NCBI GenBank assembly: GCA_036172245.1
Contig: JAYWIR010000023.1
Span: 2,542,001-2,606,000 of the forward strand
Length of the DNA stretch: 64,000 bases
Origin: Raillietiella orientalis
Lineage: Eukaryota
Reading direction: 5' to 3'
Notes under the pieces: model-generated
What the model was told of the DNA's origin: nothing
Seen by the model: only the letters and a program-made list of their open reading frames with translations
Databases searched by the model: none
Shown: positions 4,721 to 63,831 of the stretch, in pieces
Numbering within the stretch: position 1 is the stretch's first letter
Layout of the letters: every line of letters begins with the position of its first letter
Program-made: the position numbers and the translations under genes

Positions 4721-7370
4721 AACAGCAGCACGAGCGCTTGGTGGTTCCGGGAGGACCACATCACGAGACGACACCACGGTCCCGACGTTTCCTCCCTATC
4801 GGCGTATTCTCCCGCATGGGTCCGAACCTACGAGGGATCGTCAGAGTTCCGAGGCGAGCCTTCTTGGCGCGGGAAAAGGGGGAAAACGCCGGAGAGCGCC
4901 AGCTTCTTCCCGGGACTTTGCCACGAGCGCACGCAGCGGGGACTCTGTCCGCGCGACCCCGCAGGAGGTTTTCAGGCCCGTCGCAGCTTCCCGCGCATCG
5001 TTTCGGAGTTTTCATGGCAACGGCACTTCGCCGTCCCTGCGATGGCGAGCAGGAAGCGAGTCTGACGCTCGCTAGGACTAGGGGAAATGGGGGTTTCTGC
5101 AGGTGGTGAAGCGAATCCTCTTCGAGGTCCAGGTGTTCCGCTCTCCTTGCAAGAGTGCAAGCAGCTCGGAGAAGCATCAGCAACGTCCCCCCCCCCTCCT
5201 CCCCCTTCTTTTCATTGCAGCGTCCCCGCGGGATGCACGTTCGGATCTCTCCCGAATCCTGATCCATTTCCCCGTGCTGCTGGCGGATAAAGCCGGAACA
5301 TCTGTCTCTCGGTTGCCCGGGAGCATCGGAGTTGATCTGGTTGCGACGTTCTGGCGTACTCGGCTCACGGGGTCCCCCCGCCCCGCCTCTTCCGCCTGCA
5401 AGCAATCGGGAGCAGCTGACGCGAGGATTAGAGCCCGCAGCGATCGCACCCGGCAAACCTCGTGAGCCACGACGACGTCGCCCTTGCACGGAGCTATGAG
5501 CGGCTCCGCAGCTTCCCTCCGAGCGTGCGAAGCTCCCTTCCGTTCGGCATGCACTCACTGTACAACTCATCCTTTGGTGCGATGCGATTCTCATTCGCCC
5601 CAACGGCGGCAGCTGGAACAGAATGCGGTTTCGCTTAGCAGCGCCAACTCTTCGTGAGCGGTTGCTCGTGGCAACAGCGAAACAAACAAAGAAACCAAAA
5701 AAACGATTCGCGACGTTTTCCCTCATTTCCAAAAAAAAGAAAACGGAGAGAGGACAGAGCAGAAGGACGTAGCATTCTGACTTCCTCCATCCCATGTTCT
5801 TCAGGTCGGAGAACGCATGATGGAGGGGGGATCAAGAGTGGAGTTCTGCACTGGTGCGATGTTATGGAGGGCGGTAGGAATCGTTGATGAGGATGTTGGT
5901 ATTGGTCACGGAAAGCAAGTAGTTCTAGAGCCACGGGGCAAAGGGAGAAGTAGGATGATGACGGCGGCGGACGGGATGCCGTTGTGGGAAGCGGCGGAGG
6001 GAGTGTTCATTCCAGCTGCCTGCTGTGTATCTGCGAGTGCTGCTTCTCTCCTTCCCTCTCCTTCCTCCTGCTGTGCTCCACCTCTTCTCTGCTTCTCTCA
6101 GTGCGCAGAGGGCACCTCGTCGTGATCCTCCATCGAACTTTCTTCCCGTTCTTCCTCTTTACGCTGCTCAGGGGAAAGAGGCGTCGGTACGACCTCTGCG
6201 GAATCCGCCTCAAGGTGCTCCGCCTCTTCCCGACGGAAAGCGGACTGGTGGCCGCATCCGGCTCGGATGAGGGCGGTCTGCTCTGGCGAGCGACTTTTGC
6301 ACACTGGTCCGATCGCTCCCGGAGGACGCGTTCGCCGCCGCGCCTCCTCCGCGGTACGGCGGAGCGCGCAAGCGAAACCCCGCGTGCGGGAAGACCATCC
6401 ATCTCCTCCCCCGAGGAGCTTCGTGCAACTCCTCTTCGCCCTGCATGTGCGAGGAGGCAGCGCGCGGCACGATATCGCGCATTCGTGTTTTTGGGTAACG
6501 CGGGTTGCCGGGGTCACGCAACTCCGTCCGGAGCTCGCACTCTGCCGCTAGAGCAGCGTCCGCTGCGCGCCTGCGCAAGCGGGGGTTGGCTCCGCGGGAA
6601 CGCGCGTCTCAGCGGCGGCGCCTCCTTTCCGGACTTTCAAAGTCAAAGTCACGTCTTCAGATGTTTCGCGGAGACCTCCGGGCCGATTCCTGCCGGAACC
6701 TTCCTGCTCGCCGCCTGTTTCCAGGAAACTTTTCCTGGATCGCGATAAATCACTTCAAACGCGATCCAAAATGAAAATATTTAAATTTAATGAAAGGAAA
6801 TTAAGAAGATGAAAATACCACTTGGCACCTGGAACCTATTAAAACGCGGCGGTGATTTATGAGGAAGATAAATAACAGTAGCTTAAAAATAAACCGCCGC
6901 TCGTGGTGGTTTATTAATAAGAAAGAGAATGTGTTGTTTTCGATGTCTCGCGCATCCAGTGCCAAATGTTAAAGTTAGCAGGGCGGGGAACAATCGTTGG
7001 GCGTTCGCCCTCGACCTGAGGCGAGATTCCCCGTAGCTGGGAGAGCCGGGAAAACCCACTTCCTCCTCCTCCTCCTTCGTCGTCCCCGTAGCGACTCGCC
7101 AGAAGCGTCCCGACTTCCGCCGAGGGCGGAAGGCGCGTTCGGAACTGCCGCCAGATCGGAAGGACATGCGAGCGGTCCCGGATCCCGGGGGAGGGCAGTT
7201 GCAGCGTCCTCCCGGCCACCAGCGGCGGGAAGCGTCGAGAGAAGAGCGTCGGGACTGTTGGCCCGGGGACGGCGGTCGGACGGAAGCGGCGCACGGGACG
7301 GCTGCCACAAGCGGCGCGCGCTCCGGACCGAGTATTTCGACTGGGGCGGCGCATCCTCTCATCCCTTTAC

Positions 7371-8401
7371 CGCACCGCCCTCGGGGATTCGTCCGGAAGG
7401 TTGTGCGCGGAATGGCACACGCTGCAGCGGCAGCACCCATTCTCCCGAAGGAGACATCGTCGCCTATCATTTCCGAGGTCTGGAGGAGAAATGGTGTCGC
7501 GTATAGACAGACGTGACCCAAAACGTGACCGCACCAGGTGGACCTTTTCGATGGGAACGGGATCTCCGAGTGCCTTCGGGGATGCCACCATTTCATCGAG
7601 GAGATCCCCTTCCATCCCTTCCTCAAGGCCACAGTATATTTCAAGAGGAAGCGATTTTCCGAAGAATAAGCGGGGGAGGATAAGGGAAGAGGACCACAGG
7701 TCATTTGAGAAACTCCACGGTCATTTCTAAAGGCACAGGAATCGGCGGGAGAGAAGACCTGCTTTGCCTGCGCTGTTACAGCAGCAGGCTGGGTGAGACT
7801 GAAGCAGAGCTGCGTCGAGGGTCACGGCAGACACGGGCAAAGGGAGAAGGTACCTATCGGATGCAGAGATCATTTGTCCTCGTCTGACGGAAACGAGAGC
7901 GATTTCCAAGGCGGGTCGCTCTTCTGATCTTCCCGGCGGGAAGGAAGCAGGCCCAACGTTCCTCGGAAAGCGGGAACGCTCCTGTCGGAGCTGCCGGATG
8001 CGGCAGGGAAGACGCTTCGCATTTCGTACGTGCGTTGCCTCCGCACGGCGGCGCGTCACTCTCCACCACGTGCTTCTCCGTAAACATCCTGCCTCTTCCC
8101 TCCATGCTCCCCGCCACGCCTCGCCACTTCGAAGCCTTCGGGACTTCGGGAGCCTCCGATCCTTCTATACGTCACAGCAAGCTCTCGCAATGATACGACG
8201 TACAGGAAAACCCGTGAAGGGAGATCGAGGATGGTCGAATGGGATATCAGGAAATCCCGGATGCTTTCCACGTCTTTGGAACGAGCTGCTTCTTGTCCTA
8301 AAAGCTCGAAGCGGAATTTGCTGGCTCCTCTGAGGAAGCTGCGAACCTTGTCGCCGGCGTAGGGCACTGTCTCCACGTTCTCTATCCCGTTTCGGACGAT
8401 C
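7371..8401 (-). CDS. Possible exons of an unidentified minus-strand gene (8401-8347, 7621-7535, 7479-7371)
   Basis: GT-AG boundaries with compatible phases give IVRNGIENVETVPYAGDK / EGMEGDLLDEMVASPKALGDPVPIEKVHL / TSEMIGDD..; one 55-nt intron is similar in size to those in the + gene. No family recognised, and one acceptor is weak. Confidence 0.3.
7696..7993. repeat. Source of the inverted duplication copied to 10447-10741
   Basis: Its reverse complement matches 10447-10741 with 4 substitutions and one 3-bp indel by manual alignment. Confidence 0.95.
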
Positions 8402-9904
8402 CTTGTATTAGCAGCACACACACAAAAAATTTTTTTTTCTGTTTTTTTGGAGAAGGGGGGATACATCCACGCTTAAATCGACTCTGGAGTGACTCCTGTG
8501 ATAGCTTCCGCGCTCGTCTCCAGCCTCTTGTAGGTGCCCTTCGGCGTGTTTGCTGCTCTGTTCTAGTCCTCTGGGCCTTCCTGTCCAAGAGTTTCAGAAC
8601 ACCTTAGATCGCATTTCACGACGAATGCGGGAACCCGTTGTGGAAGCTCCTCGAGCAAAAGTGCGCGCTCAGAAACGTGGAAACTCATTCAGACTTCTTG
8701 TACTTATGTCGTGATGAGTACTTGTTGCTGTTGTTATAGTTGTTGGTGTTCTTGCAAGAGAATAAAAGTAACAGATTTTTACTAGAACGTTCCCACTTCT
8801 CCACGCGACTGCAGGATGTTCCATAATGGCCATTTCCACTTGAGTTTGCGCGGCTACGGCAGTGTTCTGTGTTGCAACTGTGGAAGTTTCACTTCATCAG
8901 CTACGAGACTTTTTCTGTGTCAGTGCTGCAAGACTCTCAGTAACGGTTCTTGCTGCACTCATGGAGCAAAGCCATCATCTGCCTGGCTGATCCGAAACTC
9001 AGCAGCAGCATCGACTTTCGGGATCTGATGGTGAAGGTTCCAGGAAGCCGGAGCTTTTTTGCACTAGGCGAAGCCATGGTTGGCGTCTAACCCCCCTTTT
9101 AAATTTACGCATTGCTCCGTCGATCTGCCTGGGGGGAGCTGTTCCCGGTTTTCGAGCGCTTATCAGGGAAACGGGGAAGTTCTCGACACGTGGCGTCCTC
9201 TTCCTTACCTCTAGCGTGATTAAGATGACCTGCTGAACTTACAACGGGAGCAAAGATGACTTTTGCGATTGGCAACTGCGCAGTTTTGCATGGGAAGTCA
9301 CGCAACCTGCAATTTTAACTCGCACCTGCAGCTAGAGATGATATTCGACTGCTAGTCCAGTGCCTCAGGCCAATCTGCCGGCAGCTGTTTCCCTGATGGT
9401 TTTATTCCTTGGCGCAACACCGCTCCCAACGCAATACATCACCGGCTGCTTATTTGGAGCTCGGAACGTTTCGGGAGGAGGGAAAGGTCAAAATCACGGA
9501 CGAAATCAAATAAACTTCATGATGGTTAAATGGAGCGAAATGTTCGGTGCTGTTATTCTTCAATAGCTATTAATTATTATCCATTTGATATTGGGAGCGC
9601 TCAATTTTTTATAAATCACCATGGAAGCTGAGAAGTATCTCTTGCCGTGTCGGGAGAGTTTACATGAAGGCAGCGCCGAACCGAAAAACCGTTGATGATA
9701 CGAAGCCTGACAAGATCATCTTCCAGGTGCTTTCTTGCATTCCGCACCCGATCCGCGAAAATAAACGAAACAGGAAGGAGGAAAAAATAACGAACACGGA
9801 AAGATTGCGCCGAATGACGGGGAAATGAAACAGAACGGATTCATCTTGATCCTCAGACAATTTCCACTTTATCGAGTGGCAGTAGCGTCAGAGAATCGAT
9901 GGAA

Positions 9905-12700
9905 TCATAGATGCCGGAGGCGTGTTCTGAGTTCATCAGATGCATGATCTCCCCTCCTCTCCCTTTTCCAATCGATCTCCAAAGGTAAAAGAACGCTTCT
10001 CAAGCAATGGCAAGATTGAACCAGTGGATGGCTGTTGCAATGCCTTATCAAGACGCACATGCAGCACGTGCTTCTTTGATGCTCCCGAGAGCATCGTCTG
10101 ATTTGCTGCTTCTTGATGTAGCAACATCCACGCCACCGTCCCACCGTTGCGAGTCTCCTCCAGGAACCCCCGCGAAGCGTTTTGGCGTTTCCTCTTGAAT
10201 GAACGACCCGTTGCGTCCGAGAAGCACGAAAGGAGACTTTACCAGGTCGAGAGACTCTCAGAGTACCGAATCCCACAATGAGGAAGCAACCCGGGGTGGT
10301 GGCGGCGTCTCTCACACTCGCTTCCTCTACCCTCATGGATACAGGAAGCTTCATGGGATTCGGCCATACTTCCCAGTGGAGAAGAGCTCACCTCTTCCTG
10401 ACCACGACCTTGGAGCGAACGGGATCCTGGAAGCGAAACAACAATACAGCTCCGACAGGAGCGTTCCCGCTTTCCGAGGAACATTGGGCCTGCTTCCTTC
10501 CCGCCGGGAAGATCAGAAGAGCGACCCGCCTTGGAAATCGCTCTCGTTTCCGTCAGACGAGGACAAATGATCTCTGCATCCGATAGGTACCTTCTCCCTT
10601 TGCCCGTGTCTGCCGTGACCCTCGACGCAGCTCTGCTTCAGTCTCACCCAGCCTGCTGTAAGAGCGCAGGCAAAGCAGGTCTTCTCTCCCGCCGATTCCT
10701 GTGCCTTTAGAAATGCCCGTGGGGTTTCTCAAATGACCTGTCGGCCCGCGAACAGTACTTACTGGTTGCAGGAAAGCCTTCGCACGTGGGCCCAGATCGA
10801 GGAAGCGAGCCCGGAGTTGCGGCAGCGAATGCTGCTCTCCTATCACAAGAGCCGCTCGCTGCAGGACATCATTGTGCAGCCCACCTTGAGCGCATGGGCT
10901 GAGAGGACCTCCCTTGCCACGGCTCTGTTCCACCTTAGGGAGCACCTGGGCAGTAGCCAGCCGGAGAAATGGGAAGCCCGATGTAGTATCTCTGGAAGAG
11001 AGAAAGAGCAAGGTGGTTGGACCACGGGCCAGTTGACAGACGCTGCGACCCCAAGTGCCCCACCAAAGGGACTATTGCGCTGGGGCGAGCTGCTGAGCAA
11101 CCCCATGGATGTACTCGAGTGGCCCCCGGTGCTGAAGACTACCCGGGCCCTCCCCCTGAAGTGGCAGGAGTCGGCGTTCCTGGTGTTGCACTGGGGACTC
11201 CCCAGCAACGCCCGCCGTTCGCACTGGACGAGGGGGGCTGTGGACCCAAATTGTGTCAGGTGCGGGGAACGGGAAACCCTCCCGCACCTGCTTCTTGACT
11301 GTGTTGCCCTCCGGCCTCTGTGGTTGCGTTTCGCAACGGCCCTAGGAGCACCCACGATCAACCCTAGAGACGTTCTGACGCGCCTCTTTGTGCGTGACGC
11401 CCTTCGGCCTGCCGCAGCCCTTGCAGCCCTCTGCTGCCTACGAGGGATTGTGGCGGCCTGGAGCACCGCCACTGGTGGACTGAACGACAGGGACATCATC
11501 TGCTCCGCCCTGCGTTTCCTAAGGACGGCAGCCAGATGGTCCCATTTGGGGCATATGCGGACCGAACTTGCCGGCATCCTGGAAAGGATGTAGAGGACGA
11601 CTCCAGCGGAATGTGATCCCTTCCCCAACTCCTTCCTGCTTTTGTAAATAGTGTTTTCTTTTTGTTTTTATTTGTCCTTTCCCCCCCCGCTGCCGAGTCG
11701 AACTCGCCAGCCTGCGTGCTTGCTACTCGGCAATTTCAGACTCTTTATTAGAACATTTTTTAGGACGCTGTAGGGGCCATAGCCCTACACTTGCTTGTTT
11801 GTTTTTACTAAAAAATAAACGCCCCGGCGCACCCGGGTGTAAAAACAATACAGAAGTGTTCACAGCAAAGAACTAGCAGAATGCGTAGAATATCAGGGGA
11901 ATGTCATGGAGTCTGGCATGGGTCCCACATTACCCAGCTGAATCGAATTCGATGGCTGCGTGATGGGAGCACTCCGTAGACATTTGATAGAAGCATCGCT
12001 GCCCCGCCTTTTCTGGAAGGAGTCTTTCACGAAAAAGGATCGAAAAGTACTCTGGTCCGTGCCTTACGGCGTCGAGAGGGCGGCACTTCTCACCATCTGA
12101 GACGGCTGAGCACCGCTTGCTGGTGTCCTCGCTTTAGGCGAACCTGTCTTTCCTACCTGGTTGCGTGAGTTTTCTGAAACTGCCTGAGTAGGAATTGTCG
12201 GTCGGTCGCCGCTCCTCCCAACTATGGTCTCAGCTGAATTCACAAGCGATGCCGCTGCCCTCAGCTTTTCTCCTTCAACCACCTCTGTGTCAGCTCCAGC
12301 CTTTGCCACTCATTCGTAAGCTTTATCCCAAGCGTCCTACACGTTTGTGGTGACCTCCTTCCACGATTGCAGGAGCTCGACCTTTCTGACCGTACATTTT
12401 CCGACCAGAGCGCGTATTGCATCAGCAGCGAGGCACTCCTGGACTGGCCTGGTGATGAAGCAGATGCGAGGATCGCGGGGATCGCTTCGGGAACCTGTTG
12501 CTGAGATTGTTCACTCAGCTGGGTCTTCGAATGCATCCCCTAGGGTGGTCCCGGGATTTGATCGATCGACATTTTGCCTTCTCATTCCCATGTATTCCAG
12601 GATTTGTGCCCTGCGTCACTTTTTTCAGCATGCTCTCCATCTGCGTTGTGAGCGAAGGGTGCACAGAGTCCACCGATTTCGATGAACCGTTCCGATGGCG
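9905..12700 (-). mobile_element. Old decayed LINE (APE endonuclease region) interrupted by the 10450-11843 insertion
   Basis: The minus-strand translation runs across the removed insert: LLSNVYG..CCEHFCIVV..RRRHHPG, degenerate forms of LxNVYAP, GDFN and WRxxHP. Boundaries approximate. Confidence 0.55.
10450..11843 (+). mobile_element. Young 5'-truncated L1/Tx1-like LINE insertion with a captured 5' segment, flanked by a 10-bp TSD
   Basis: Uninterrupted ORF2 C-terminus (10742-11593) with zf-RVT-type CVRCGERETLPHLLLDC, then a pyrimidine-rich 3'UTR, AATAAA, hairpin and short A tail. AACAATACAG occurs at both 10440-10449 and 11844-11853. Confidence 0.9.
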
Positions 12701-12789: not shown

Positions 12790-13720
12790 CAGAAACACCT
12801 CTTTCAGACTGATCTCCAAGGCATGCAAAGGTTTGCCTTCTTCGAGAAGTCCGCGTTGGCTGAGGTCTCCGAGCCTGGCACCAAGCATTGCGGGCTCGAA
12901 TACTGCCCAGGGAAGGATCGACGCCTAGAAATGAGTAGACAAACCTTAGACAGCAAAGACGAAGCTTCTGGGGGCGTGGACAACTCGGGAAGTGACGGAC
13001 GCTGCGACCCCGAGTGTCCCACCCCACGGACTTTACACTGGGGAGAGCTGCTGCTCGGCATCCCTCAGGGGGAGGTGAAGTGACCCCAGAGAGCTGAAAC
13101 AGTGACGCCTTCCCCCTCAAGTGGCGGGAGTTGGCACTGCTGGTGGTGCATGGGGAAATCCCGTGCAAAGCGTGCCTCAACCACTGGACACGGGGGAGCG
13201 TGGGCGCTAAGAGCGCGGCAGGTGTGGGAAATCCTCCCGCACCTGCTGCTGCCCTCCAACCCCTTTGGGATCGCCTCGCAGCGACCCTAGGATCTCCGGC
13301 GGGAGGTCCTGGTGACATTTTCAAAGCCTCTTCGCGCGTGCCGCACTTTCGCAAGTCGCTTCCTTAGCAGTTCCCTCCTTCTGTCTTCGCGGGATCACAG
13401 TGACCTGGAACGCCAGAAAAAGAGACCAAAATGACAGGGACGCCATCCACTGGGCGCGGATCTCCCTGAATTTCCATCCCCGCCTCGAGATGGCCCCAGC
13501 TGGGGCGATATACGAACGGGGCTTGCCAGCATCCTGAACAGGATGCAGAGGACTCCAGGCAGCATACTGTGATACCTTCCTCGATCCTCCCCCTCCCCTG
13601 CCCTGTTTTGTTTTTACATTACTGCTTCGTGTGTTTATTTATTTTTATTTTTTTGGTTTTCCCCTTCCCTACGCTGCCGAAGCAGACCTTGCCGGTCTGC
13701 GTACCGCTCTTCGGCAGGTT
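12790..13720 (+). mobile_element. Degenerate 3' fragment of the same L1/Tx1-like family
   Basis: Clear nucleotide similarity to 10800-11730 (gacgctgcgacccc.agtg.ccc..., ctggggagagctgctg, ctcccgcacctgct, gacaggga.); frameshifted. Confidence 0.85.
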
Positions 13721-13749
13721 CATTGCGCGTGGTAGAACCTAGCGTTCTA

Positions 13750-15500
13750 CCACACAAATGTAGTATGACTTTATGTAATAAATGCCCAGGCATAACCGAG
13801 TGATAATTATCGAGAATGCATCCAGAATGGCTAGTCCGTAGTGATGTCACCGGACTTGAGGCTTCCACGTCCTGTGGGAAACCGCTCTATTCCGTAGAGG
13901 AGGTTCGGACGTCAGCGGTATTCCTGTCGATGAATTGGCTCTTGGGCAGAATTTGGATGTTGGAGTACCTTGGACTGATGGCTCTCGTGTAGATACGTAA
14001 TTGTCTTAGGAGACCGTCGAAATTCTCCGTCCACTTGTCCGAGTTCTCTTCCATTTCCTCCCCTTGTTGGGGTGCGATTGGGGTTGGGCTGTGAAGGTAT
14101 TCTAATTTGCGGAGGTCATTCACCATTCCAGCCTACCACCTGCTAATCTCGAGGACAGCTGCGTGGATGTGGCAGTCGCTGCCAGGTTCAGTTTGCTGGA
14201 GCGTCAATTGAGAGCGGAAGAGTTTCGCCGTGTGATGCCCGCTCCTCTTAGCCAGTCCAGCATCCGTGAGTGGTCGACATTGGGGCAAATCCACGTCCTG
14301 TTTCCACGCGAGATACGTTGTGATCTTTGCTTGGACGCCGAGATCGGCGCATCCTGGAACAAAGTAGCAGCCCCCGAAGGAGCAAGTGTGGCGATCGGTA
14401 CTGAGATATCAGCCAGTTGTCCCGTAGACCACGAAAGCACAGCTCTTGTGAAACCGCGACGCTGCTGAAGGAAATGGAGAGACTATTCGTTCTTCGGCCT
14501 GCTTATTTATTTCTGTACCATTTTGTTCACCTCGATGTTCCCACTCACTTGTTCCTAGAGTTCTTTCGCTTCCTTGTTCAGATTTATGGCACTCTCTTGC
14601 TGTCTCCTTTTCCTTTTCTCGTGTTGGTAGGTTTCCAGGAGGGACGGAACTCCAGAAACCCAGGCAACTGCTAACCAATACAGATCAGCTCGAGCCAAGG
14701 GATTCAGCTACGGAGACTCCCATGGATTCGAAACCGAACGACCCAGGTCATAGCAGGCAAAGAGACTGTACATTCGCCGTCGAACAAGAACACGTTTGGC
14801 ACCCACAACTGTGGATGAGGCAGGGTGGGCCCAGGTACAACCACCAACAGTGGTGGCAGAAGTGCTGTTGGTCCATGATCCATCAAGGCGACCGGCTGAA
14901 GGAAACAGAAATGGATGAACGCACACTCGGGAGATCCCCAGTCCTTCATGAAGGATGAGGCAGATCAGCGTCTGTTCCTGGACACCGGCAAATAGACGAA
15001 AAATGAGGGAAACTGACAATCCCTGTCCCCAAATCGAAAACTCCTGACCTCCGGGATCCCGGCATCATCGCTTCAAAGCTAATGGGTTCCGAGCGGTTGC
15101 ACACGATGAGGCCTTCGGGAATCCGCATCTGGAGCGTCTTGGCGCTGGCAGCATGCTGGAAGGAAACCCTGGGAAGAGTTAAATGGAATGATGGAACCAA
15201 GCACAAAGGGTCGCTTCTCTGCTTGAAAGAGGCAGGTCAGCTTGTAGAGAAGCATACAAGGTCATCCAAGGTCATCCAAAGAAGCATCGGAGCGGTCTTC
15301 TACCCGATGAAACGGAAGATCAAGCAACAACCAAAGAAAGGGTCAGCTGTATCCATGGAGGAAGTACATGCCAAAGGTGCACCTGAGGCAGCATTTATTT
15401 CGTCCAGGGAAAGGGGTTTTTCAACTTCGGGATCCTCGGTGGTTTCTGAAGACCACCACTACAGTTGTGGAGAAGCTGAGCCGAATGAACAGTTCCAGCG
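13750..15500 (-). mobile_element. Highly decayed LINE reverse transcriptase fragment
   Basis: Minus-strand remnants YKLTCLFQAEKRPFVLGSIIPFNSSQGFLPA (cf. YKILAK.LA.RL..VL..II...Q.GF.PGR) and FDLGTG (cf. LD.EKAFD). Confidence 0.5.
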
Positions 15501-21499: not shown

Positions 21500-24400
21500 C
21501 GGCACGACTTATTTAACACGAAACGAACACACATAAAAGGACCGCCTTCCGGGTACAGTGCAGAAAATGCCGACTTTAGGGAAAGGAGGGATAGTAACAG
21601 AAAAAGGAAGATGTGAATGAGTAAAGCAAAAGTGAGGCAGATTACACGCTGGGCGAAAGCACCTGCCGTCATCGGGGAGTAGAATACATGGGGTGGGAAG
21701 AGATCGCGGGGGGTCTGCACCTCCTTCCTTGCAACCGGCCCGCGACGCAGAAAGAGCCCTCTTTGATTTCCGGTTGGAGGTGGTATTTTTTCATCTTGGT
21801 ATTTCCCTCATTGTGGAGGGCACGAAATGGATGGCTATCCTCTGGTTCTGTTCCGTCGTGCAACGAAGAGAAGAGGACTCAGGCTATCTCCCTGCCAGAT
21901 CCCCCCCCGCACAGGCACGTCGTACTCATGGCAGACGCTCACAGAAATGTTAATCGGCTAGTCGTGCAACGCAGGGATGATGCAAAGCAGTCCGGAAGCG
22001 CCAAAGGGAGGTTCCTGGCTTAGACAGTCAAAGTCACTCTTTCGGATCGAGCGCTTCTCACAGTTGGCTGCCTCGCTTGCCCACCGCGACATGGGAGTTC
22101 AACGCCTTGCGGCTATCTGCGACGCCATGTTACAGCCTGAACCAGGTCCTTGGCCTCCAGGCTTCTCCCTGAAGAGGCGCAGTTCTATTCCGGGCTGATC
22201 ACGGAATTGCCCGCCTGCCCCAGACGCTCAGAGCGCAACGAAAGCGAATTGACGTCCGAATTCACGGTTGCGGTCGCATGCCAGTCATTAAAGATCTGGA
22301 TTCTCTCTGAGGGAGGAGATGTCCTCCCTCAGAGAGAATCCTACCTTCGCCAATCAAAAGGAGACAGGCCCGTCTCTCGTCTCCCTAATTAGCTTTGTCA
22401 GATGCTCAGCCCATCCACTGAGAAAGGATGTAGCTCCCGGGTCAGGTCATCGTCCCGTGCTGCTGCTCTTTCCTTGAGGTTTCCCTCGTCATGGAGGATT
22501 TGCCCTGTCGTGAAAGTAAGTCGAGGATTGCACGTTGCTTCTCCTGTATTCCGGAAGCAGCTTCATGGCGAACTCCACGGTATTCATGTGCATACAAGGA
22601 GGAGGGGGTATGAGCATGCTTGGAAGCGCACCAAGGGCGGGAGTTCGTGACCTTTTTCTCCAGCAGCCATGATGCCTCCGCCTTCTCAAGTCGGCCTCTC
22701 AACATTCCGCTCCCCGTAAGAAGGCACTCCCTTGCCGAAAGAAGCGGTCAGGGAAGCGGAGTTCCCAGATGAAACCTTTACACAACTGGTTCCCAATACC
22801 GGAGTTTGTGGACGAGGAAGTTTCATAGGAAACTGAGGCAGATCTTCGCCTCCAAGTGATCCGCTGAGCCTGCCGATAGGCAAGAAATGCTCATTGTAGG
22901 CCTCTCGCCAAGCGTTCGCTGACGTGCACAGCTCGTTGACCTGGATCCTCTGATTGTGATCCTGAGTGCCACCCGGGGGCAGGGCAGATGCTAAAATCAC
23001 CCACTGTTTATCAGATGTGCCAAGTGGATGCCAGATGCAGTGAGGAGCTGCTGCATCAAAGGAGCATCGACGAATCGACGGCGCTCCGTCTACGCGCGGG
23101 CGAGCCTCTAGGCGCATCACGAATGTAGATGTTACGATCGGGCTAACCGATGACAAGCTGGCACGGCAGACCGTCCCTGTCAAAGCGGACGCTCACGACG
23201 GCGCCCGCGATCTTGAGTCTTACTGGACATGGGGCTCTTCAGGAGTGTGAGGAACTGCACTTCCGGGAATGGGGCGCGCTTGTCCGTTTCGCACTTGGCT
23301 GCTTTGGCCTCCTAGGTCCAGGATCCGCCTCAAAGACTTGGCGGCTCCGCGTCGGGATACCGGCTCGGGACGTCCTGACGTTGGGGAGAATCGGACTGCA
23401 GGTGCAGTTCCGCCTTGCGCCAAGATGTGGACTTCCCCATTTTGCGCTCCAGCACGCCTCATCCTCCGGAGATAGGCGAGCAGCGAAGGACCACACTAGC
23501 TGCCGCCGATCTTCCGATGCAGGATGCGAGGATTTGGATGTCCCCCTGAGGCAACTGGCTTCCCTCCAGGAAGACTATCCGTGGATTTCCTGTCTCTCTC
23601 TGAGCTTTACTGCTTGACAGCAGGAGGCAGTTGTGTCCTCGGATACATACCAGGAAATGAACCCGGAGGAACTTCGTTTCATGCGTCTCTTCCTCAGTCA
23701 TCCTTTGGAAGTGGTGCTGCAGAACTCGACGAAATGGTCCACCGTGGCCGCCAAACCTCTTGTTGCAGCGTTGTCTGCCCTAAGGACAAGAGACGACAGT
23801 AGCACACGGATGAGGTGAGAGTTCTCCTGCACCGTTGCAAGAAAGATGACACTCCTTGGCTGCTGGAAGACGTGCGAGTTGGCGGATGTCGCCACTCCGC
23901 GTATCCAGGAAAAGGGATACTTCGGTGGTCCGAACTGTGAAGTGTTGCTCCCGAAGAACTCGTGGTCTCTGCCTTGTATTTAGACACTTCTGTGTTCCCT
24001 GTGACGTGTAAACAGTAAGTGCTGCTGCTCCTTCTGCGCCGAAGAGTCTAGTGCAATCAGCTCTGGCACCTCGTCTCCGGGGGAGCAGCACCCACGAACT
24101 GTGCCAGGTGCGGATCGGTGGAGTCGATCCTGCATTTGGTTTTGGACTGCGGCGACCTCCAAGAACTGTGGGGGAGGCTGGCTTCTGCGCTCTCGCACCA
24201 GGAGGACACCTCCTGTGACCTGATGAGTCGGTTCTCCGTGCCCGGTGGACTCTCGACCGGAGCAGTGATCGCAGAGAGATGTTGCATCCATGCCATCGTC
24301 ACGATCCGCCATGTTTTGCAGACGCAGACGCAGCGAAGGGAGGTCACCGTGATGGCAGCTGCCTAGATGAGGACAGCTGCAAGGTGGCCTCGCCTGAAGA

Positions 24401-43039: not shown

Positions 43040-45860
43040 TGGCAGTTTGTTCCAGAACTTTTTTTTTTGCGCCTGTAGGCGATGAGATGGATGTGTAAAC
43101 TCTTTGCTTTTGAAATCTTCCCAGAACCGCCCTCGCAGTCGAAGTTTCCGGTAGGTCAAGATGCACGTCAAAGGGTTGGGAGGGATCCTAAAAACTACAG
43201 ACGCTATCGCATCCGTGAGCTCTAACTGGCATCTATGAATGAACGTGTGAAACCAAAGGAGGCACCGAGAAGGAAGATTCAAACTTCCCCCTGAGTAGAA
43301 ACCAGAGACTTCTTTTCCTAAGGGAACCAAAGAAGCTGTCCCGAAGTGACCTTACATGTCTGTTCGCCAAGCTTTCCTGGTCTGAAAGCTTTCTGCACCA
43401 GGGGACCTTTTCACCACCTTGCGGATCGCTTCTCCAAGTAGACAGGACCATCCGTTCTCAGGCAACAGTCCATTGTGCTAAGATGCACCCGAGAATCACA
43501 CCTCCCCAAACATCATTTCATCTCCTCTTTCAGTTCGCTATCTCCCAGGGATGACACTTTTGTGTGTTCCACCAACCACTTGTGAAAGCGTTGCGACTCG
43601 CAGGTTAAACCTGTAAAAGTAGAAAAATTCATGCAGGAAGCTGGCTGAGCGTGACAAAATGGCGAAGAGGGCCGACGTCGAGATGTTCCCTTTATCTTGT
43701 TCCCCATCCTTTCTGCCGCAAGCTTTGCCTATCACAGCGAATCACAATACATGTAATCACATACTGCACACGAATCACACAATCTAATCGGCATATGTGG
43801 GCGAAATAGAAAATCCAAATGCCTCCCTTCACAAATCTCTTCGATTCTCAGTTCCGAAAAGTCAACTTCATAATACGAAACCCATATCTAACACTGAATT
43901 CATCTAAAACTAAGTTCACCTAAGACTAAATTCACCTAACACTGAAGTCAGCTGACAGTAAATCCATTGAAAACAAAATTGTCCTAACACTAAATTCGTC
44001 TTACACTAAGTTCATCTAAAACAAATCCATCCAAAACTAAGTTCATCTAAGACTAAATTCACCTAACACTACATTCCTATCTAAGATTGTAACTACCAAC
44101 CTTCGAAGTCAGCAGCACCAAATCTTACGACTTCCCACAGAGATGGACTCATATCCACATACTCAGAAGATGTTGGAACACTTCACTTTGGCTTCACTCT
44201 GCCTTCAGAATCTGAGCTGGCACCTTGGGTTCCTCTCTAAGATTCATCATCCGTTCAGAACTCCCCCAGCCAGGCTTCTGAGCATCATGCTCACGCCTTA
44301 CCCACAATCTTCTTCGTAACATCAGCCATAATAAGAGGCTTCGGCGGTTTGACTTGCCTCCCTGTACTCGGTGCACCAGCCCTCCCACGCTGAAACAACT
44401 TCAGATTCTGTCTCTTACCCTCATTTTTCTCCACAATACTCCTTAGTGCCTTGAAAGGACCAAGAGCAGGTTGAACCCTCCACCTGCCCCTTACCAAGAC
44501 CCCCTTCAGTCAATCCATAAGAACTGATTGCGTCATCCCCTCTCTCCGCCTAGTCGGAGTCTCATCCATTCCTAGAGTCATCAATTTTACCACTAACCAC
44601 CGCCTTGTATTTGCCAACGCCACTGAAACAAGAACCTCCTATCGGCCTTTTTCCTTCTTTTTGTCCTGCGAATCCGGGTTCATTTCTTAATGGGAAAGAG
44701 GCGGCAGTTCTGAACGGGTTCCTCTAGCGCAGCCACTGCAAACCAGGACTTGCGATCCCTCATAAATAGCAGCTTCGTTCCTTCTATATTTCTGCCTCAC
44801 CATGACCATCGCAACACCAATGCTATCCCTGCTAAAGAACCTCCCCTCATTGGAACGTTTATGGACCTTGCAGCAGGAGTGAGAAGAGAGCTACACCCGC
44901 TGGGTTCGGGAGGAGAGCCTGAGGAAGATGCTGGGAATCAGGGGTGAACCATCGCGGTTTCTTTCTGGAGTAAGCACGGAAGCATCGGACACCGTTCTTT
45001 GGGAGAGGGTTCAGGACTTCAGAACACCCTTGCTCGAGGCTTACATCAGAGAGTCATCCACCCGCTCTGAGTACTCGGGGAATCTTGTGACTTGCTTTTC
45101 CCCCCGCAGAGGGCTCCGTGTTTTGAGCGCCTCTTGCCCTTCGGTTCATCTCACTGTGATCCTCGTGCTTGAGGGTTTCTGGAGATCTAGCCTGGTCGCT
45201 CTCATCTCCTCACTTGGAAGCATCACAGCCTCTGTGACAATGGGGAGCTTTGTCCTCACTGCAGCGCATCGGCTGAGGTTTTGAGAGAGGGCCGCTCACA
45301 TCTCCACCAAACTGAGGGAGCTGCATCAGAGCAATCTCCTCCCTTTGTTCCCCCGTTCGTTCGTCCTGCCTAAGTCCCAGGCCTTTCTTTCAGCTTCCAC
45401 TCCTCCCGGGCCTTGCCAGAGACTCTCCACTTTCTTGGAAGCTTTAGGGTCCCGGAACCCGGAGCACCTTGCTTCCTGGGAGTCGACTCCGGATTCCGCC
45501 TCCAGCTGCTTCTCGTGTCCCAGCCGGAATCCTGCTCTTCCTCGCGGCCGGGTCCCGTGTCCGGGAACAGGGTGTAGGAAACAAGCAGCTACCGATCTAG
45601 GAGTCTTCCACAGCTTCCAAGAGCTCCATCATCGTCTTCCCGCGGTGGCTGCTGCTCCTCCTCCTCCCGTAGCTTCAGTGGCCTTCCGACGAAAAGACAC
45701 GTCGTTTCCCTTCTTTCCCCGAGCTATGGGCGAGTGTCCCTCTGCTCCATCTGGAGCCACACTCCACCACCTGAATGGTGACCTTGCTAAGATCAACTGC
45801 CTCTTCTGTTGTGAACGTCCTCTCGCGCTCCCCTTAAAAAAAACAAGGATGAGCAAATGA
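43040..45860 (-). mobile_element. Decayed LINE 5' portion (gag-like ORF1 with zinc-knuckle remnants, start of ORF2), intronic
   Basis: CFSVGGLVHRVQGGKS...REHDAQKPG resembles decayed CCHC knuckles; composition matches the other TE blocks. ORF2 motifs are weak. Confidence 0.4.
43888..44070. repeat. 16-bp minisatellite, ~11.5 units, consensus CTAA(A/C/G)ACTAAATTCAY
   Basis: Units read directly: ctaacactgaattcat, ctaaaactaagttcac, ctaagactaaattcac and so on. Confidence 0.9.
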
Positions 45861-46485: not shown

Positions 46486-47019
46486 GTCGAAATCGAAAAG
46501 AGGGAGAGCCCTGTAGTTGGGAAAGACTCGAATCGGGATGGACGGACGGTTGTTAGGGATAGCGATTTAGCGAAAGCTGAAAGGAGTGAAGTTAAAGATG
46601 GTGCCTCCGAGTGCAGTCCTCAACAGGAAGGAGAAGAGGAGACAGAGGAAGAGGAAGTGGAAGAAGAGGAAGTAGAAGAGGAGGAAGAGGAAGAGGATGT
46701 GGAGGAAGAAGAGGAGGAAGAAGAGGTGGAGGAGGAAGAGGTGGAAGAGGAAGAAGTAGAAGAGGAGGAGGAAGAGGAAGAGGAACTGCGAAACGACAGT
46801 TCTAAAGAATGTGGCATCTCTGGGAGGAAAGACGAAACTGGACGAAGACAACAAACCAAAGCAAGCTCCAGTGTTCTCGAAGAGAACCGGACAAAATCTG
46901 TTCTCGAAGAGAAGAGTGGCTATCAGGAGCAGGAAGAGAAGGTGAAGAACGATTCAAAATACCATGAACGTGTGGTTCAGGACCAACGGAAGAAACAGAC
47001 TCGTTCTCTTGAAAAGGAG
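46486..47019 (+). CDS. Exon containing a poly-glutamate tract (VEIEKRES...EEEEVEEE...SLEKE)
   Basis: Acceptor tttctcttttccttaag, donor gag|gtaaca; 534 nt open, phase 0/0; mixed GAA/GAG codons at ~46627-46785. Confidence 0.75.
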
Positions 47020-58499: not shown

Positions 58500-61190
58500 A
58501 AACTGCCTTTGTAGCTTTCGTAGTGCTTCATCTGATTCCAAGAGTTAGTGAGGAATGCTTCTGGGACCTTGTTCCTCGAAGGCATCCTGAGTTTCCTTCC
58601 TGATCATTGCTATTGAACAACGATGTTAACAAAGCTAACAAAAACTTCTTTGAAAGCTAATAAAGTGATCGATGTCAAAATAAAAAGTGAAGAGAGTCTC
58701 TTCGGAGGTTTCTTCTAGATACGAGTTCCAACCAGAAGCCCGCCGCAGATGGCACGGAGAAACCGGTGAAAATTTCCTCCTGAAACGGGGGGAAGTCAGA
58801 TCTTTTCGTCGGGAAAATTTCGAGTCGGTACACGATGATCTGGATGTTTGGTCAGATGGCTCAGCAGGAGAGGCGAGAAACTCAACAAAGAAATCATGCA
58901 AGAAGCATCTTTCGTTCTGCTCCTCGGCTGCTGACTCTTGGTTCGACCACTGAAGGCCAGAAAAAAATAGCATCGGTAAAGAGATTGACAACTGGTCGCC
59001 TCAGCTCCCGTATGAGACTTTCGCTGTAGATTTCAGACTACAGACTTGCGAGCCGAATCTTAGGAAAGGAACATGTCGCTTCCATAAAGACAATAACCAT
59101 TGAGGATCGTAAGCTGGGAAATGAAGAGACCGAGCGCTAAAGCACTCCTGAAGGATTTCAAGCGCCCTGAAGAGGAAAGTACAGTGGATGCAACGGAAGC
59201 TAGAGTTGCAGCCTTAGGACTCCCGTGGTCCAAAGTCCTGAACAAGTCCTATGTGACGGAAGAGTATATAACTATACAAGTGCTGCAACAGTACACAAGA
59301 AAGTCTTTTAGCCTTCCTATGTGAATTGCTCCGATTTCCTGGAGTTCTTCAAAGTTCCAGGGAGTCCTAGAAATAGCCAACGTCCTTGGAAGACCAACAG
59401 CAGATTACATCCAGCTGCAATTCACCATCAGACACAGTGAGACACGCAGAATCCCCATTTAGATAAGGCAGAAGTACTTGCACGAATGAATCCCATTCCG
59501 GAAGAATGGAATGCGATTCAGTGTGTCCTCCTCCGTGAGGCACTGCTATACACCAAAAGTAGAGGGTTTATGATATGGAGTTCCCTGCGCAAATGTTGGA
59601 TCTTCCCCTTTAGGACTCAGATGAACGTGGTAGCGTGTTATTTTTTAGTCAGTTAGAAGACGTTGCAACAAGTAAACTTCCTTACAAGATAGGGATGCAT
59701 GAAAAGACGATCCAAAAATTGTCCACCTTGGATATTCTCCATGAGTTTGGGGGCTCGTCGGAAGTGCTATGGAACTCAGAAGTCTGTTTGTCCAGAAAAC
59801 ATTTGTTTGATGTTTTCTGGAAAGTTCAAAAGTTCCTGCGTTGAGTTTTTGATAAACTGGTTCCCTGGGCAAAGAAAAAGTCCTAAGGAACTGATCCCTA
59901 TGGAAAAAGATTGATTCGAACTACACATAGACGTAGCAGATAAAAGGATGATCGCGCTGATTTCACAAGCTGTTCTGTAGAATTCGGAATAGCTATAGCT
60001 TCCAGCTGATTAGAGATCATGTTGATTGCCTGTTGAATCATACTTAGTCCTTAGTAGGAAGGGAAAAAATTGATAGAGTGCTTGGATCAATCTTAGGAAT
60101 CCACAACGCATCGCACTGTCGTAGTGCAGCCTCTAAAAAATGGCCAGTGTCGTAAGCAGGACTTTGGGTGACACAAAGAATACCTTTAACACTTTCTCCT
60201 CGATGTCTGATATTTCAATCGAGAGCGGTGGCTTCTCTCTCCATTCTCCAGTCTCTCTTCTTAGAATGGCCACAGGAAAAGGAACTCGCTTTTATTGATC
60301 TCGCTAAAGCATGTGACCTCGAGGGCACCAGGAGATCTAAACAGATGCTGCTCTCTATCTGTTCAGGGCGTCACGGGTGGTTATGTTCACAGATGCGGTT
60401 GACTCGGTAGAAACAGAGCACTTCAAGGACAAATAGACTCTCATAGATCATCGGGCCTGACCGCAACGGTGCAGTCCAATTTAGCTGTCTTGGCTTGTCT
60501 GTGAATGGCACCCATTTCCCCTGCCATAGGTGATTGATACAAGATGATTCATACAAAATCAAGGTAAAGGAGTCGTGTTCAGCCAGTCATTACATAGGTG
60601 ACTTTGTAAACCTGTGAATTCGACCATAATACTTGGAAAAGGAAGCAAGCGACCACTGACACCGAGTCTCAAGAAAACTTCTCTCGTTGATAAAACTGAG
60701 CGCAAACTAGTCCAGGAAAGTCTTCCCCTAAAATAAATCTGGAGCACCTGGGATATGTTCATGCTCCGGAAGATGTACCTTTATTGAAGATGGCATCAGG
60801 AAAAATTCCGGATACAATTGGACAACTGCAAGCCCGAGAAGCTCAAGGAGGGGGGAGGTGTATCGTGTGGACCATTGGGCAGGACTTCTAGAAAAATGCC
60901 ATCAGGTGCAAATTCTCTTGGTGTTTTCTTCAACTTCCCAACCTCCCACTTACAGAAAGAGACGTGCGAAAATGGAGAGAAGTACGGGCAGCACTCTTTT
61001 CCGGAGATGTGATTTGCAGACAAAGAAGCACGCACACAAGTGCTCTGCCATTCTTCACAGACTCCCCCAGTGCATTCACGAACTCCCAGTGCCTTAAGAT
61101 TGGTTCTTTGGATCTGTCCCACGGAGCCTCCGATATGGTGGAACGGAAGTTTCTCAGACGACGGCCGAGCGCGAATAAGGGGGGACGGAG
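58500..61190 (+). mobile_element. Decayed L1-like LINE ORF2
   Basis: Remnants in the expected order: KSPKELIPME (cf. KSPG.DGIP.E), LRNPQRIAL (cf. NWRPI.L), LAFIDLAKACD (cf. FIDL.KAFD) and NSLGV (cf. KYLGV). Confidence 0.65.
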
Positions 61191-61191
61191 A

Positions 61192-62630
61192 GTTCTCACC
61201 CGGTCACGCCGGAGCGTTTATTTTATAAAAAATAAACCAGTTGGGAAAAAAGTTCCCAACAGACGTACAAGCAATAGGGAGGGTCCACTGGCAGACCAGG
61301 CCGGGCGGGATAACGGAAGTTCGGAACGGGACAAGGGATCGGGAGACAACTGAAAAAAAATCAAACGCTGTGGGATGCGACAGGGATGAGAAGAGAAACA
61401 CCAGGGAATTAGCGGAGCCAACGAGGATGGGGGATGAACAAAAAAAAAAAAATGGCGGGAAGGGCAAGGTTCATCGGGGTCTGCCGTTCTTTGCTGTCCA
61501 TCAATAGGCGGTAGATGCCGGCGATCTCGTTTGCTTTTCTTCCAGATGAGGCCACCTTGCAGCCGCCCTCACATGGGCGGCTGCCAGGCGATGGACCTCA
61601 AATTTACGCTGTTGTCTCCATGGCTTAGCGGAGCTTAGCAATGGCGCGAATGCAACTGATTGTTGCGACTACCGCGCCACCTGAAAGCCCGTTGCGCATG
61701 AGGAAACTACACAGCAGTTCTCTTGCAGTGTCCCCCTGGAGCGGGACGGATAAAGCCACCTACGCCACAGTTCGCAGAAGACACCTCAGTCGAGCAAAAC
61801 GTGCGGGAATGACTCGATCGTCTCGCACCTCGAGCAGTTCAGGGAGACTGCTACCCTGGAAAGGGTGTGTCGCCGCAGATTCCAGAGTAATCCCCAGTGT
61901 AAAAACAGCAGCACGTCCTGTTTCCATCTTACGGGAAACACTGAGGTGTACAAACTAGTGGGAGGGACCACTAGTTCTTCGCGGGGCACACTTAAAAGCT
62001 TGCTCCACAGGAGAAGTCCCTTGGCCCGATCCGGAGTGGCGGCATCCATCAGCTCATTTGTCTTCCAGCTGCCAAGGAGCTTGATCTCTCCCGCGATTGT
62101 GCAGAAGAACTCCCACCCTGTCGGTAGGCAACTGTCATTGCTTTCCCTAAGGGCAAGGGGTGTGGCGGCTAGGCGATTCCACTTCTTGTCTGCATGACGT
62201 CTTCCAGAGAGTTACTCAGCAGAAGTCTCAGGCCTCGAAGATCTTCCGGGCGCATTCCCATGTTAGCAGCACATGACGCAATGGACTCCTGCCGCCATGC
62301 AGTGAAGTTCATAGGGCGGCAGGAGATCCAACGTTGGGCTTCCAGTAGCGAAGCAAATTGCCCCAGCGGTAATCCAAATCCTTTCCTGGTGTGCCGAAAG
62401 TGCAGCAGCAACGGAAGCAGTCCTTGACTGTCGGTGCAGCGCTGAAGGAGAAGGTTCTCAGGAAGACATCAAGGAGTACACCAGAGTTTGTCACATAGTT
62501 CCAGCATTCGGAACTGCACCTGCAGTCCGATCTTCTCGATGGCCAGGATGCCCAAGCCTGACGTGGGAGATGGAGATCGAGGTCTTGAAAGACGCACAAC
62601 CAAGTAGCAGCTTCCACTGTTCGCTTGCGT
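61192..62630 (-). mobile_element. 3' fragment of the same L1/Tx1-like family as 10742-11843
   Basis: DAATPDRAKGLLLWSKLL...FLHWGL...NCSRCETIESFPHVLLD aligns to the 10742-11593 protein; same terminal AATAAA+hairpin. Confidence 0.85.
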
Positions 62631-63423: not shown

Positions 63424-63831
63424 AAAAAAAAAACACACACACGATGTAAGAGAGAACAGGAAAAGAAACTGAAAAGAAAGGGTGGATGCCCCACGGAAGC
63501 CTGCAACGCACCTTAGTTTGCGCGAAGACAAAGTTTACAGGGAATATAGTCAGTGACAAACATGGGACATCCGAGCCGCTATCTCCAACTATGGGTCATC
63601 TTACCCATCCAGACTTCCAGACAAAGGCTCGCTCTTAGCGGAGTGGCGTGTCCACTGCTGGTGTCCCAACAGGTGCTTCTGATATCCCTCCCTCTCCTCA
63701 TATCCATCTCCCTGTAAACTTTGTCTTCGTGCAAACTAAGGTGCGTTGCAGGCTTCCGTGGGGCATCCACCCTTTCTTTCCAGTTTCTTTTCCTGTTCTC
63801 TCTTACATCGAGTGTTTTTTTTTTTTTTTTT
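63424..63831. repeat. Long inverted repeat with ~120-bp arms (63424-63543 and 63709-63831)
   Basis: The arms are near-identical reverse complements around a ~165-bp spacer, with poly-A/poly-T outer ends. Confidence 0.9.

What the first reader, a model, noticed from the sequence alone, without database searches (positions are those of the whole stretch)
10440..11853. Chimeric LINE insertion that captured an inverted copy of DNA lying 2.5 kb away
Seen: a 10-bp TSD (AACAATACAG) encloses both a LINE 3' fragment (10742-11843) and a 292-bp 5' piece that is the reverse complement of 7696-7990 (4 substitutions, one 3-bp indel). The last 3 nt of the left TSD (CAG) also match the source, giving a microhomology. 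Removing the insert restores the reading of an older LINE endonuclease remnant, which supports a single insertion event. Inference: during target-primed reverse transcription the nascent cDNA switched template to local sequence. The captured piece is in the sense of the putative minus-strand pre-mRNA covering 7.4-8.4 kb, so the template could be a nascent host transcript (as in U6-L1 chimeras) or nearby DNA. The result is a ~295-bp inverted repeat able to form dsRNA in read-through transcripts.
Basis: partly seen in the sequence, partly recalled or inferred. Interest (0 to 1): 0.75.

Follow-up and report, generated by a model that had tools for sequence, protein, structure and literature searches.

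The report
LINE insertion with inverted local copy
A jumping gene (a LINE) landed here and, in the same event, a flipped 292-base copy of unique DNA from 2.5 kb away was patched in at its front end; this is a real example of an accident known from human LINE-1, unusual mainly for the long reach.

Summary
One 9-10 bp target-site duplication encloses a 5'-truncated L1-clade LINE (10737-11844) and a 292-bp inverted copy of 7696-7993, which has no other match in the genome. Divergence fits one event. The older 'endonuclease remnant' and the 'minus-strand pre-mRNA' found no support. Orientation cannot identify an RNA template, since either end of the break can prime.

Best reading: one target-primed insertion finished by microhomology-guided copying of nearby chromosomal DNA (about 0.6 for a DNA template, 0.3 for RNA, 0.92 for a single event). 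Similar inverted copies at kb distance occur in this genome without a LINE joint, as earlier scan notes on other DNA also report. Locally templated additions at L1 5' junctions are published for human L1, typically with templates within 15 bp; this one lies 2.45 kb away. Seen in 1 of 55 family copies. No reads were listed. Modest interest.

The parts
10440..10449 (+). Left copy of the target-site duplication (9 bp certain, 10 bp with an ambiguous A); sits in the family's usual CA^RCA cut context
10447..10449 (+). 3-nt microhomology (CAG) shared by the target end and the source (7991-7993)
10450..10741 (+). Captured 292-bp piece, reverse complement of 7696-7990; 4 substitutions and a 3-bp slip in a CTG repeat
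10737..10741 (+). 4-5 nt microhomology (CCTGT) shared by source and LINE; with 10742-10747 it forms a 10-bp imperfect pairing to source 7691-7700
   Evidence: (I3)
10737..11844 (+). 5'-truncated L1-clade LINE, 1108 bp, about 98% identical to its nearest copies; ends in GTGTAAAA with no long poly(A)
10742..11593 (+). Open C-terminal part of ORF2, with zf-RVT at about 11147-11323 (E 9.4e-5, below Pfam's curated cut-off)
11844..11853 (+). Right copy of the target-site duplication
7696..7993 (-). Source of the captured piece: single-copy DNA, no recognised gene or RNA; 2453 bp from the copy
12857..13800 (+). Older, unrelated LINE 3' relic about 1 kb downstream; not part of the event and not an endonuclease region

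Best explanation
One target-primed reverse transcription event. SHOWN: the duplication brackets both pieces, the donor is local and unique, both joints carry microhomology, and the two parts are of similar age. INFERRED: the LINE endonuclease cut at its usual CA^RCA context; reverse transcription stopped after about 1.1 kb; a free 3' end at the unfinished 5' junction paired by microhomology with chromosomal DNA 2.5-2.75 kb upstream, about 290 nt were copied, and the other joint was sealed by a second short microhomology, leaving a duplication 2 nt shorter than the family's commonest 11 bp. The template was most likely the chromosome itself. Two DNA routes give the same product: (a) the cDNA end pairs with the upstream minus strand (about 0.33; it has the 10-bp anchor); (b) the resected target end folds back on its own strand and is then captured by the cDNA (about 0.27). 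The product is a neutral scar: a 295-bp inverted repeat with a 2.45-kb spacer.
For: Junction anatomy. Chance of both microhomologies at random joints about 3e-4. Age: 5-6 private changes in 1108 bp of LINE predict 2.6-3.2 differences between the arms; 4 are seen (P 0.27-0.39). DNA template: near-identical inverted copies without a LINE 5' joint occur at similar scale in this genome: 409 bp with a 2781-bp gap (L142), 73 bp with 2286 (L036), 1464 bp with 2589 (L045), 120 bp with 165 (window 63424), plus L090, L105 and a complex event in L148-L150. L035, a family copy, carries a hairpin and a 2235-bp, 99.9% inverted copy of itself, best read as self-primed DNA-templated synthesis. Upstream plus inverted is the only geometry that fold-back allows. 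Published human L1 cases are read as DNA-templated (PMC10191854; 10.1101/2024.08.27.596794; 10.1101/2024.12.14.628481).
Against: Sequence alone cannot tell DNA from unspliced RNA. Fold-back across 2.45 kb on only 3 bp is weak: that site ranks at or near the bottom of the anchored sites, and the one large-loop human case described in detail used 14 bp of homology and gave an inversion, not a duplication. Published templated insertions lie typically within 15 bp of the site. The G-T pair in the anchor would be a G-U pair on RNA, and with RNA parameters the site ranks first or tied first of about 500 at primer length 12 (post hoc, and RNA:RNA energies are only a proxy). The anchor's rank falls at longer primer lengths (10 of 28 at 20 nt, DNA parameters). 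The family's reverse transcriptase appears to jump templates on its own RNA (L039, L072, L075). No reads or empty allele were examined.
Confidence: 0.6

Rival explanations
1. One reading: the LINE reverse transcriptase moved its cDNA end onto a nascent minus-strand RNA transcribed over 7.7-8.0 kb, copied about 290 nt, and joined the target by CAG.
For: The best pairing is at the cDNA end and includes a G-U-compatible pair. The 3-nt target-side joint resembles the family's ordinary 1-2 nt finishing joints (6 of the 11 measurable joints among 14 tried; the other 5 show extra or mismatched bases). One human case of a co-inserted nearby pre-mRNA is published (PMC10191854).
Against: No gene or transcript is shown on either strand. 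Look-alike inverted copies arise here without a LINE. The piece is collinear with genomic DNA, with no splicing signature.
Confidence: 0.2
2. Twin priming in trans: the free upstream target end primed the LINE reverse transcriptase on a plus-strand nascent RNA running toward the cut, and the two cDNAs annealed at CCTGT.
For: The upstream end appears to have primed in other family copies: inverted LINE pieces follow the duplication in L072 and L075, and an 8-nt templated piece in L062. Antisense mRNA/L1 chimeras were linked to twin priming (10.1101/2025.02.02.635956, passage).
Against: No plus-strand transcript is shown. It needs a second RNA at the site. The DNA-only background is unexplained by it.
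Confidence: 0.1
3. Two separate events: an ordinary LINE insertion and an unrelated inverted duplication that happened to land at its 5' joint.
For: Local inverted duplications are common here: 4 events in 264 contiguous kb, including this one.
Against: If the LINE came second, the duplication would flank the LINE alone; it does not. If the copy came second, it had to hit the joint within a few bases and spare the duplication; at roughly one event per 70-90 kb that is about 1e-4 per copy (my estimate). Ages agree.
Confidence: 0.05
4. Assembly artefact.
For: No reads could be laid on the locus.
Against: The arms differ at 4 sites plus an indel; the structure has a duplication in the family's cut context and microhomology at both joints; it lies inside a 3.1-Mb contig.
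Confidence: 0.03

Closest known systems
Templated insertions at human L1 (10.1101/2024.08.27.596794; passages and the end of section 4 read)
   Same: Non-L1 genomic DNA copied into the L1 insertion during integration, duplicating a local segment; rare (22 cases in a set of 3,598); a cDNA strand-annealing route is proposed.
   Different: There the templates are typically under 250 bp and within 15 bp of the site; here 292 bp and 2453 bp away. Those are somatic tumour events; this one is in a reference assembly. Their distance distribution (Supplementary Fig. 4d) could not be seen.
Foldback inversion (inverted duplication) 5' of the L1 target site (PMC10191854 and its preprint 10.1101/2022.05.18.492429; passages)
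   Same: Same geometry: inverted duplicate of upstream target DNA at the 5' head, with TSD. The preprint proposes cDNA extension on the upstream minus strand by a DNA polymerase.
   Different: 52-220 bp, 4 cases (0.3-0.4%), described as short foldbacks; distance to the template is not given in the passages read. The same paper has one nearby pre-mRNA capture.
Inverted duplication at the reciprocal end of an L1-induced break (10.1101/2024.12.14.628481; passages and section 9 read)
   Same: TSD kept, inverted duplicate on the non-priming side, microhomology at the turn; model of resection, self-annealing and synthesis.
   Different: Their two duplications used small hairpins with 2-bp homology; large hairpins gave inversions. 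Here a 2.45-kb loop goes with a duplication.
5' extra nucleotides of zebrafish L2-clade LINEs (PMC4245944, PMC2666801; passages) and yeast foldback insertions at breaks (PMC11724301; passages)
   Same: 5' additions copied from flanking DNA; foldback synthesis followed by end joining.
   Different: Described as several nucleotides for the LINEs, and 2 to about 150 bp next to the break in yeast.
U6/L1 and mRNA/L1 chimeras (10.1101/2025.02.02.635956; passages)
   Same: One TSD around a non-LINE 5' part and a LINE 3' part.
   Different: Those 5' parts are known RNAs or first exons; here the donor is anonymous, local, unspliced DNA with no Rfam match.

Membership tests
TPRT insertion with locally templated 5' addition | One TSD encloses both parts | tested here: met
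TPRT insertion with locally templated 5' addition | 5' part is not element sequence and maps only near the site | tested here: met
TPRT insertion with locally templated 5' addition | Intact family 3' end at the priming side, in the family's target context | tested here: met
TPRT insertion with locally templated 5' addition | Donor retained in place (duplication, not inversion) | tested here: met
TPRT insertion with locally templated 5' addition | Empty allele lacks both parts | not testable with these tools
   No second copy of the site in the assembly; no relatives held
Foldback inverted duplication at the non-priming end | Upstream donor, inverted, microhomology at the turn | tested here: met
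Foldback inverted duplication at the non-priming end | Small hairpin, donor next to the cut | tested here: not met
   2453-bp spacer; 3-bp anchor among the weakest available
RNA/LINE chimera (U6-L1 type) | 5' part is a known or demonstrably transcribed RNA | tested here: inconclusive
   No Rfam, Pfam or protein match; expression not testable
RNA/LINE chimera (U6-L1 type) | RNA signature such as a spliced-out intron or an RNA end | tested here: not met
   Collinear with genomic DNA apart from a 3-bp repeat slip
L1 clade LINE | ORF1 plus ORF2 with APE endonuclease, RT and C-terminal zinc domain | tested here: met
   Near-full copies L046, L051, L052; ORF1 zinc knuckle and zf-RVT hits are below curated cut-offs
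L1 clade LINE | RT groups with L1 in a tree of all LINE clades | tested here: inconclusive
   Best solved-structure match is human L1 ORF2p (E 1.7e-47) over R2-type proteins (3.4e-17 and weaker); no tree built, other clades absent from that set
Tx1 group | Phylogenetic placement with Tx1 elements | not tested
   No named Tx1 protein came up (4 hits, none so named); target preference is Tx1-like (recalled trait)

The most novel reading that the evidence does not exclude
This germline has a DNA-templated copying route with a preferred reach of about 2.3-2.8 kb that makes inverted local duplicates, and unfinished LINE junctions are handed to it. Four of nine local inverted events seen here have spacers of 2286-2781 bp (P 0.03 under a log-uniform null, 0.11 under a linear null; post hoc). 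The TSD-marked case would then fix the break position and let the route's geometry be read genome-wide.
Probability: 0.15. Interest if true: 0.55.

Novelty: new member of a known kind. Interest (0 to 1): 0.28.

Why it matters
It is a clean fossil of a rare L1-type integration outcome outside human cells, in a family without a poly(A) tail, with a donor over a hundred times farther away than the typical published distance. It shows that LINE integration can duplicate unique host DNA and leave a long inverted repeat. As a single scar with no shown function and an unresolved template, it does not settle the DNA-versus-RNA question; a genome-wide count of such junctions could.

Tried and rejected
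No sequencing run was listed for 7000-12500, so no reads were laid; this is no evidence either way. Older endonuclease remnant at the site: three tests negative; a very diverged element of another clade is not excluded. Host gene over the source: no support; the Pfam scans found no convincing host gene among the window ORFs given (not all 262 ORFs were scanned). Piece as a repeat, family sequence or structured RNA: rejected. Reverse direction (10450-10741 as donor): rejected, because the copy would have to match the chimeric segment to within 3 and 5 nt and would leave no other donor. L105 as a second capture: rejected; the LINE sits inside one arm of an older inverted repeat. L142 as a second capture: unresolved; a 12-mer brackets the inverted arm plus 1.08 kb, but that 1.08 kb is not a repeated element. 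Clustering of the arm differences near the LINE joint: 5 events, not tested formally. Only the 200 kb on one side of the window were surveyed for background. Paper searches were aimed at human L1 and zebrafish LINEs; I did not search for invertebrate cases and make no claim that none is in print.

Full report
Observation. The structure is as described in its core. A 10-mer lies at 10440-10449 and 11844-11853, and 10447-10741 is the reverse complement of 7696-7993 with four substitutions and one 3-bp gap. The family ends in GTGTAAAA, so the first A of the right copy is ambiguous and the certain duplication is 9 bp; this 9-mer occurs twice in the window. The piece has two matches in the assembly, itself and the source, and the 2.6 kb around the source are single-copy. 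It is not a known RNA.

The LINE. The 3' part has at least 40 copies at 85-100% identity, counting itself (40 of 5988 candidates scored). Near-full copies carry an ORF1 with a weak zinc-knuckle hit and an ORF2 with APE endonuclease, RT and zf-RVT; the best solved-structure match is human L1 ORF2p. I call it L1-clade; Tx1 membership was not tested. A degenerate 3'-end pattern gave 69 places, some belonging to a sister family that shares only the last 35 or so bases. I tabulated 56 loci, 55 with an intact 3' end; 14 share nearly identical flanks, leaving 42 independent sites. Duplications are mostly 10-15 bp, commonly 11, and start after CA at RCA; the window's site fits that context, as do L060 and L064.

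In 25 of 29 other copies the alignment runs back to 10737, five bases into the captured piece: CCTGT in 12 copies, CCTG in 13. So both joints carry microhomology; random joints give 5 nt or more in 0.5% and 3 nt or more in 5.4% of trials. The LINE-side pairing extends to 10 bp with one bulge and one G-T pair, -8.3 kcal/mol, reached by 0.07% of random anchored pairs. Its rank among minus-strand sites within 5 kb upstream is 1 of 39 at primer length 12, but 4-6 of 31-64 at lengths 8, 10 and 15, and 10 of 28 at 20 (DNA parameters). The target-side anchor is 3 bp and ranks last or nearly last. The test is post hoc.

One event. The LINE part has 6 private changes in 1108 bp against 17 close copies, one of them at the ambiguous end. 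That predicts 2.6-3.2 differences between the arms; 4 are seen. A LINE landing in an older duplicate would have its duplication around the LINE alone, which is not so. A later copy landing exactly on the joint is about 1e-4 per copy by my estimate. I put the single event at about 0.92.

Claims that failed. The empty site does not read as a LINE endonuclease by tblastn, by a profile from this genome's own endonucleases against 100 shuffles, or by Pfam on read-through frames. The nearby older LINE relic starts at 12857 and is a 3' part. No gene could be shown over the source. The orientation argument fails on logic as well: the product can come from the cDNA end on a minus-strand template or from the free target end on a plus-strand template, each DNA or RNA.

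How frequent. Only the window's copy has a host-derived addition over 50 nt between duplication and LINE: 1 of 55 (95% interval 0.05-10%), or 1 of 42 independent sites. By my reading, eight copies have no clear duplication (L034, L035, L037, L041, L042, L043, L049, L106); self-comparison of 60 long loci (578 kb) found no second TSD-bounded inverted capture. Other copies show short templated additions (L062, L044, L094), inverted LINE pieces typical of twin priming (L072, L075), internal deletions (L039, L075) and a self-foldback (L035).

Which template. Near-identical local inverted copies without a LINE 5' joint are common here. In 264 contiguous kb there are four events including this one; L142 matches it in size (409 bp), spacer (2781 bp) and identity (98.5%). 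LINE-centred loci add L036, L045, L090 and L105. This points to a DNA-templated route that needs no RNA. Against pure fold-back stands the weak 3-bp anchor; for a cDNA-initiated switch stands the 10-bp anchor, although a final capture step would also select a good pairing. My split: cDNA onto upstream DNA 0.33, fold-back of the target end 0.27, cDNA onto minus-strand RNA 0.2, target end onto plus-strand RNA 0.1, two events 0.05, artefact 0.03.

Known cases. PMC10191854 (passages) reports four inverted duplications of 52-220 bp upstream of L1 targets and one co-inserted nearby pre-mRNA; its preprint (passages) proposes cDNA extension on the upstream minus strand. 10.1101/2024.08.27.596794 (passages) reports 22 templated insertions, typically under 250 bp and within 15 bp. 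10.1101/2024.12.14.628481 (section 9) reports inverted duplications with retained TSD from small hairpins. PMC4245944 and PMC2666801 (passages) describe flank-derived 5' extras in zebrafish LINEs, and PMC11724301 (passages) the yeast foldback route. Figures and bioRxiv supplements were not seen; Supplementary Fig. 4d of 10.1101/2024.08.27.596794 may hold distant donors and bears on the claim that 2.45 kb is unusual.

Verdict. Real, one event, a new example of a known L1-type outcome with an unusually distant donor. The template is unresolved and more likely DNA. No function is shown; the arms could pair (-647.7 kcal/mol) only in a transcript spanning 3 kb, for which there is no evidence. Earlier scan notes report local inverted duplications elsewhere in this genome but no note matched this junction type in two look-ups. 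The organism is not identified by my calls; unchecked notes call it an animal. Interest 0.28.

Noticed in passing
L033, L036, L040, L049, L051, L057, L062, L085, L091, L104, L110, L111 (3' flanks): This family often inserts antisense into related LINEs at the codons of a W-Q-(E/Q)-(S/T/L)-A/V-L motif near the ORF2 zinc domain: 11 of the 12 flanks I picked and translated show it at the same register, L110 is shifted. Earlier scan notes describe the same habit at other motifs; the word for this motif was met in no note.
   Followed up: partly
L035:3545-8279: Family copy preceded by a 24-bp hairpin with a 9-nt loop, a jump of about 200 nt, and a 2235-bp 99.9% inverted copy of itself; no TSD found. 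Looks like cDNA self-priming.
   Followed up: partly
L045:4311-5774 and 8364-9827: 1464-bp, 99.9% inverted duplicate that replaces the last bases of a family copy's 3' end; spacer 2589 bp.
   Followed up: partly
L142:3265-3673 and 6455-6862: 409-bp, 98.5% inverted copy with a 2781-bp spacer. A 12-mer brackets the second arm plus 1.08 kb of single-copy DNA, like a TSD, but no element is recognisable.
   Followed up: partly
window 63424-63543 and 63709-63828: 120-bp, 96% inverted repeat with a 165-bp spacer and A/T runs at the outer ends.
   Followed up: no
L148:9772 to L150:4451: Complex young rearrangement: several 99-100% inverted pieces 10-12 kb apart and a 1457-bp direct copy 19 kb apart.
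   Followed up: no
L064:1421-1443 and L072:1377-1443: Two copies truncated at the same T-tract of the 3' UTR, each with a long added T run at the 5' joint; L072 also has an inverted LINE piece.
   Followed up: no
L051, L052, L095, L098, L107, L108, L112-L119: Fourteen full-length copies of a sister subfamily share 3' flanks at 90% identity or more, so a LINE-in-LINE composite seems to have been amplified as a unit; their left duplication copies differ in recurrent ways.
   Followed up: partly
L034:3941-6354 and L037:5420-6512: Family copies interrupted antisense at the RT K-A-F-D codons by another LINE, as earlier scan notes describe.
   Followed up: no
window 43865-44086 and 46595-46796: A 16-bp AT-rich tandem array, and a GAA/GAG-rich repeat that would encode a glutamate-rich tract.
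   Followed up: no
window 21865-24400 and 61190-62600: Further LINE relics of related families.
   Followed up: no
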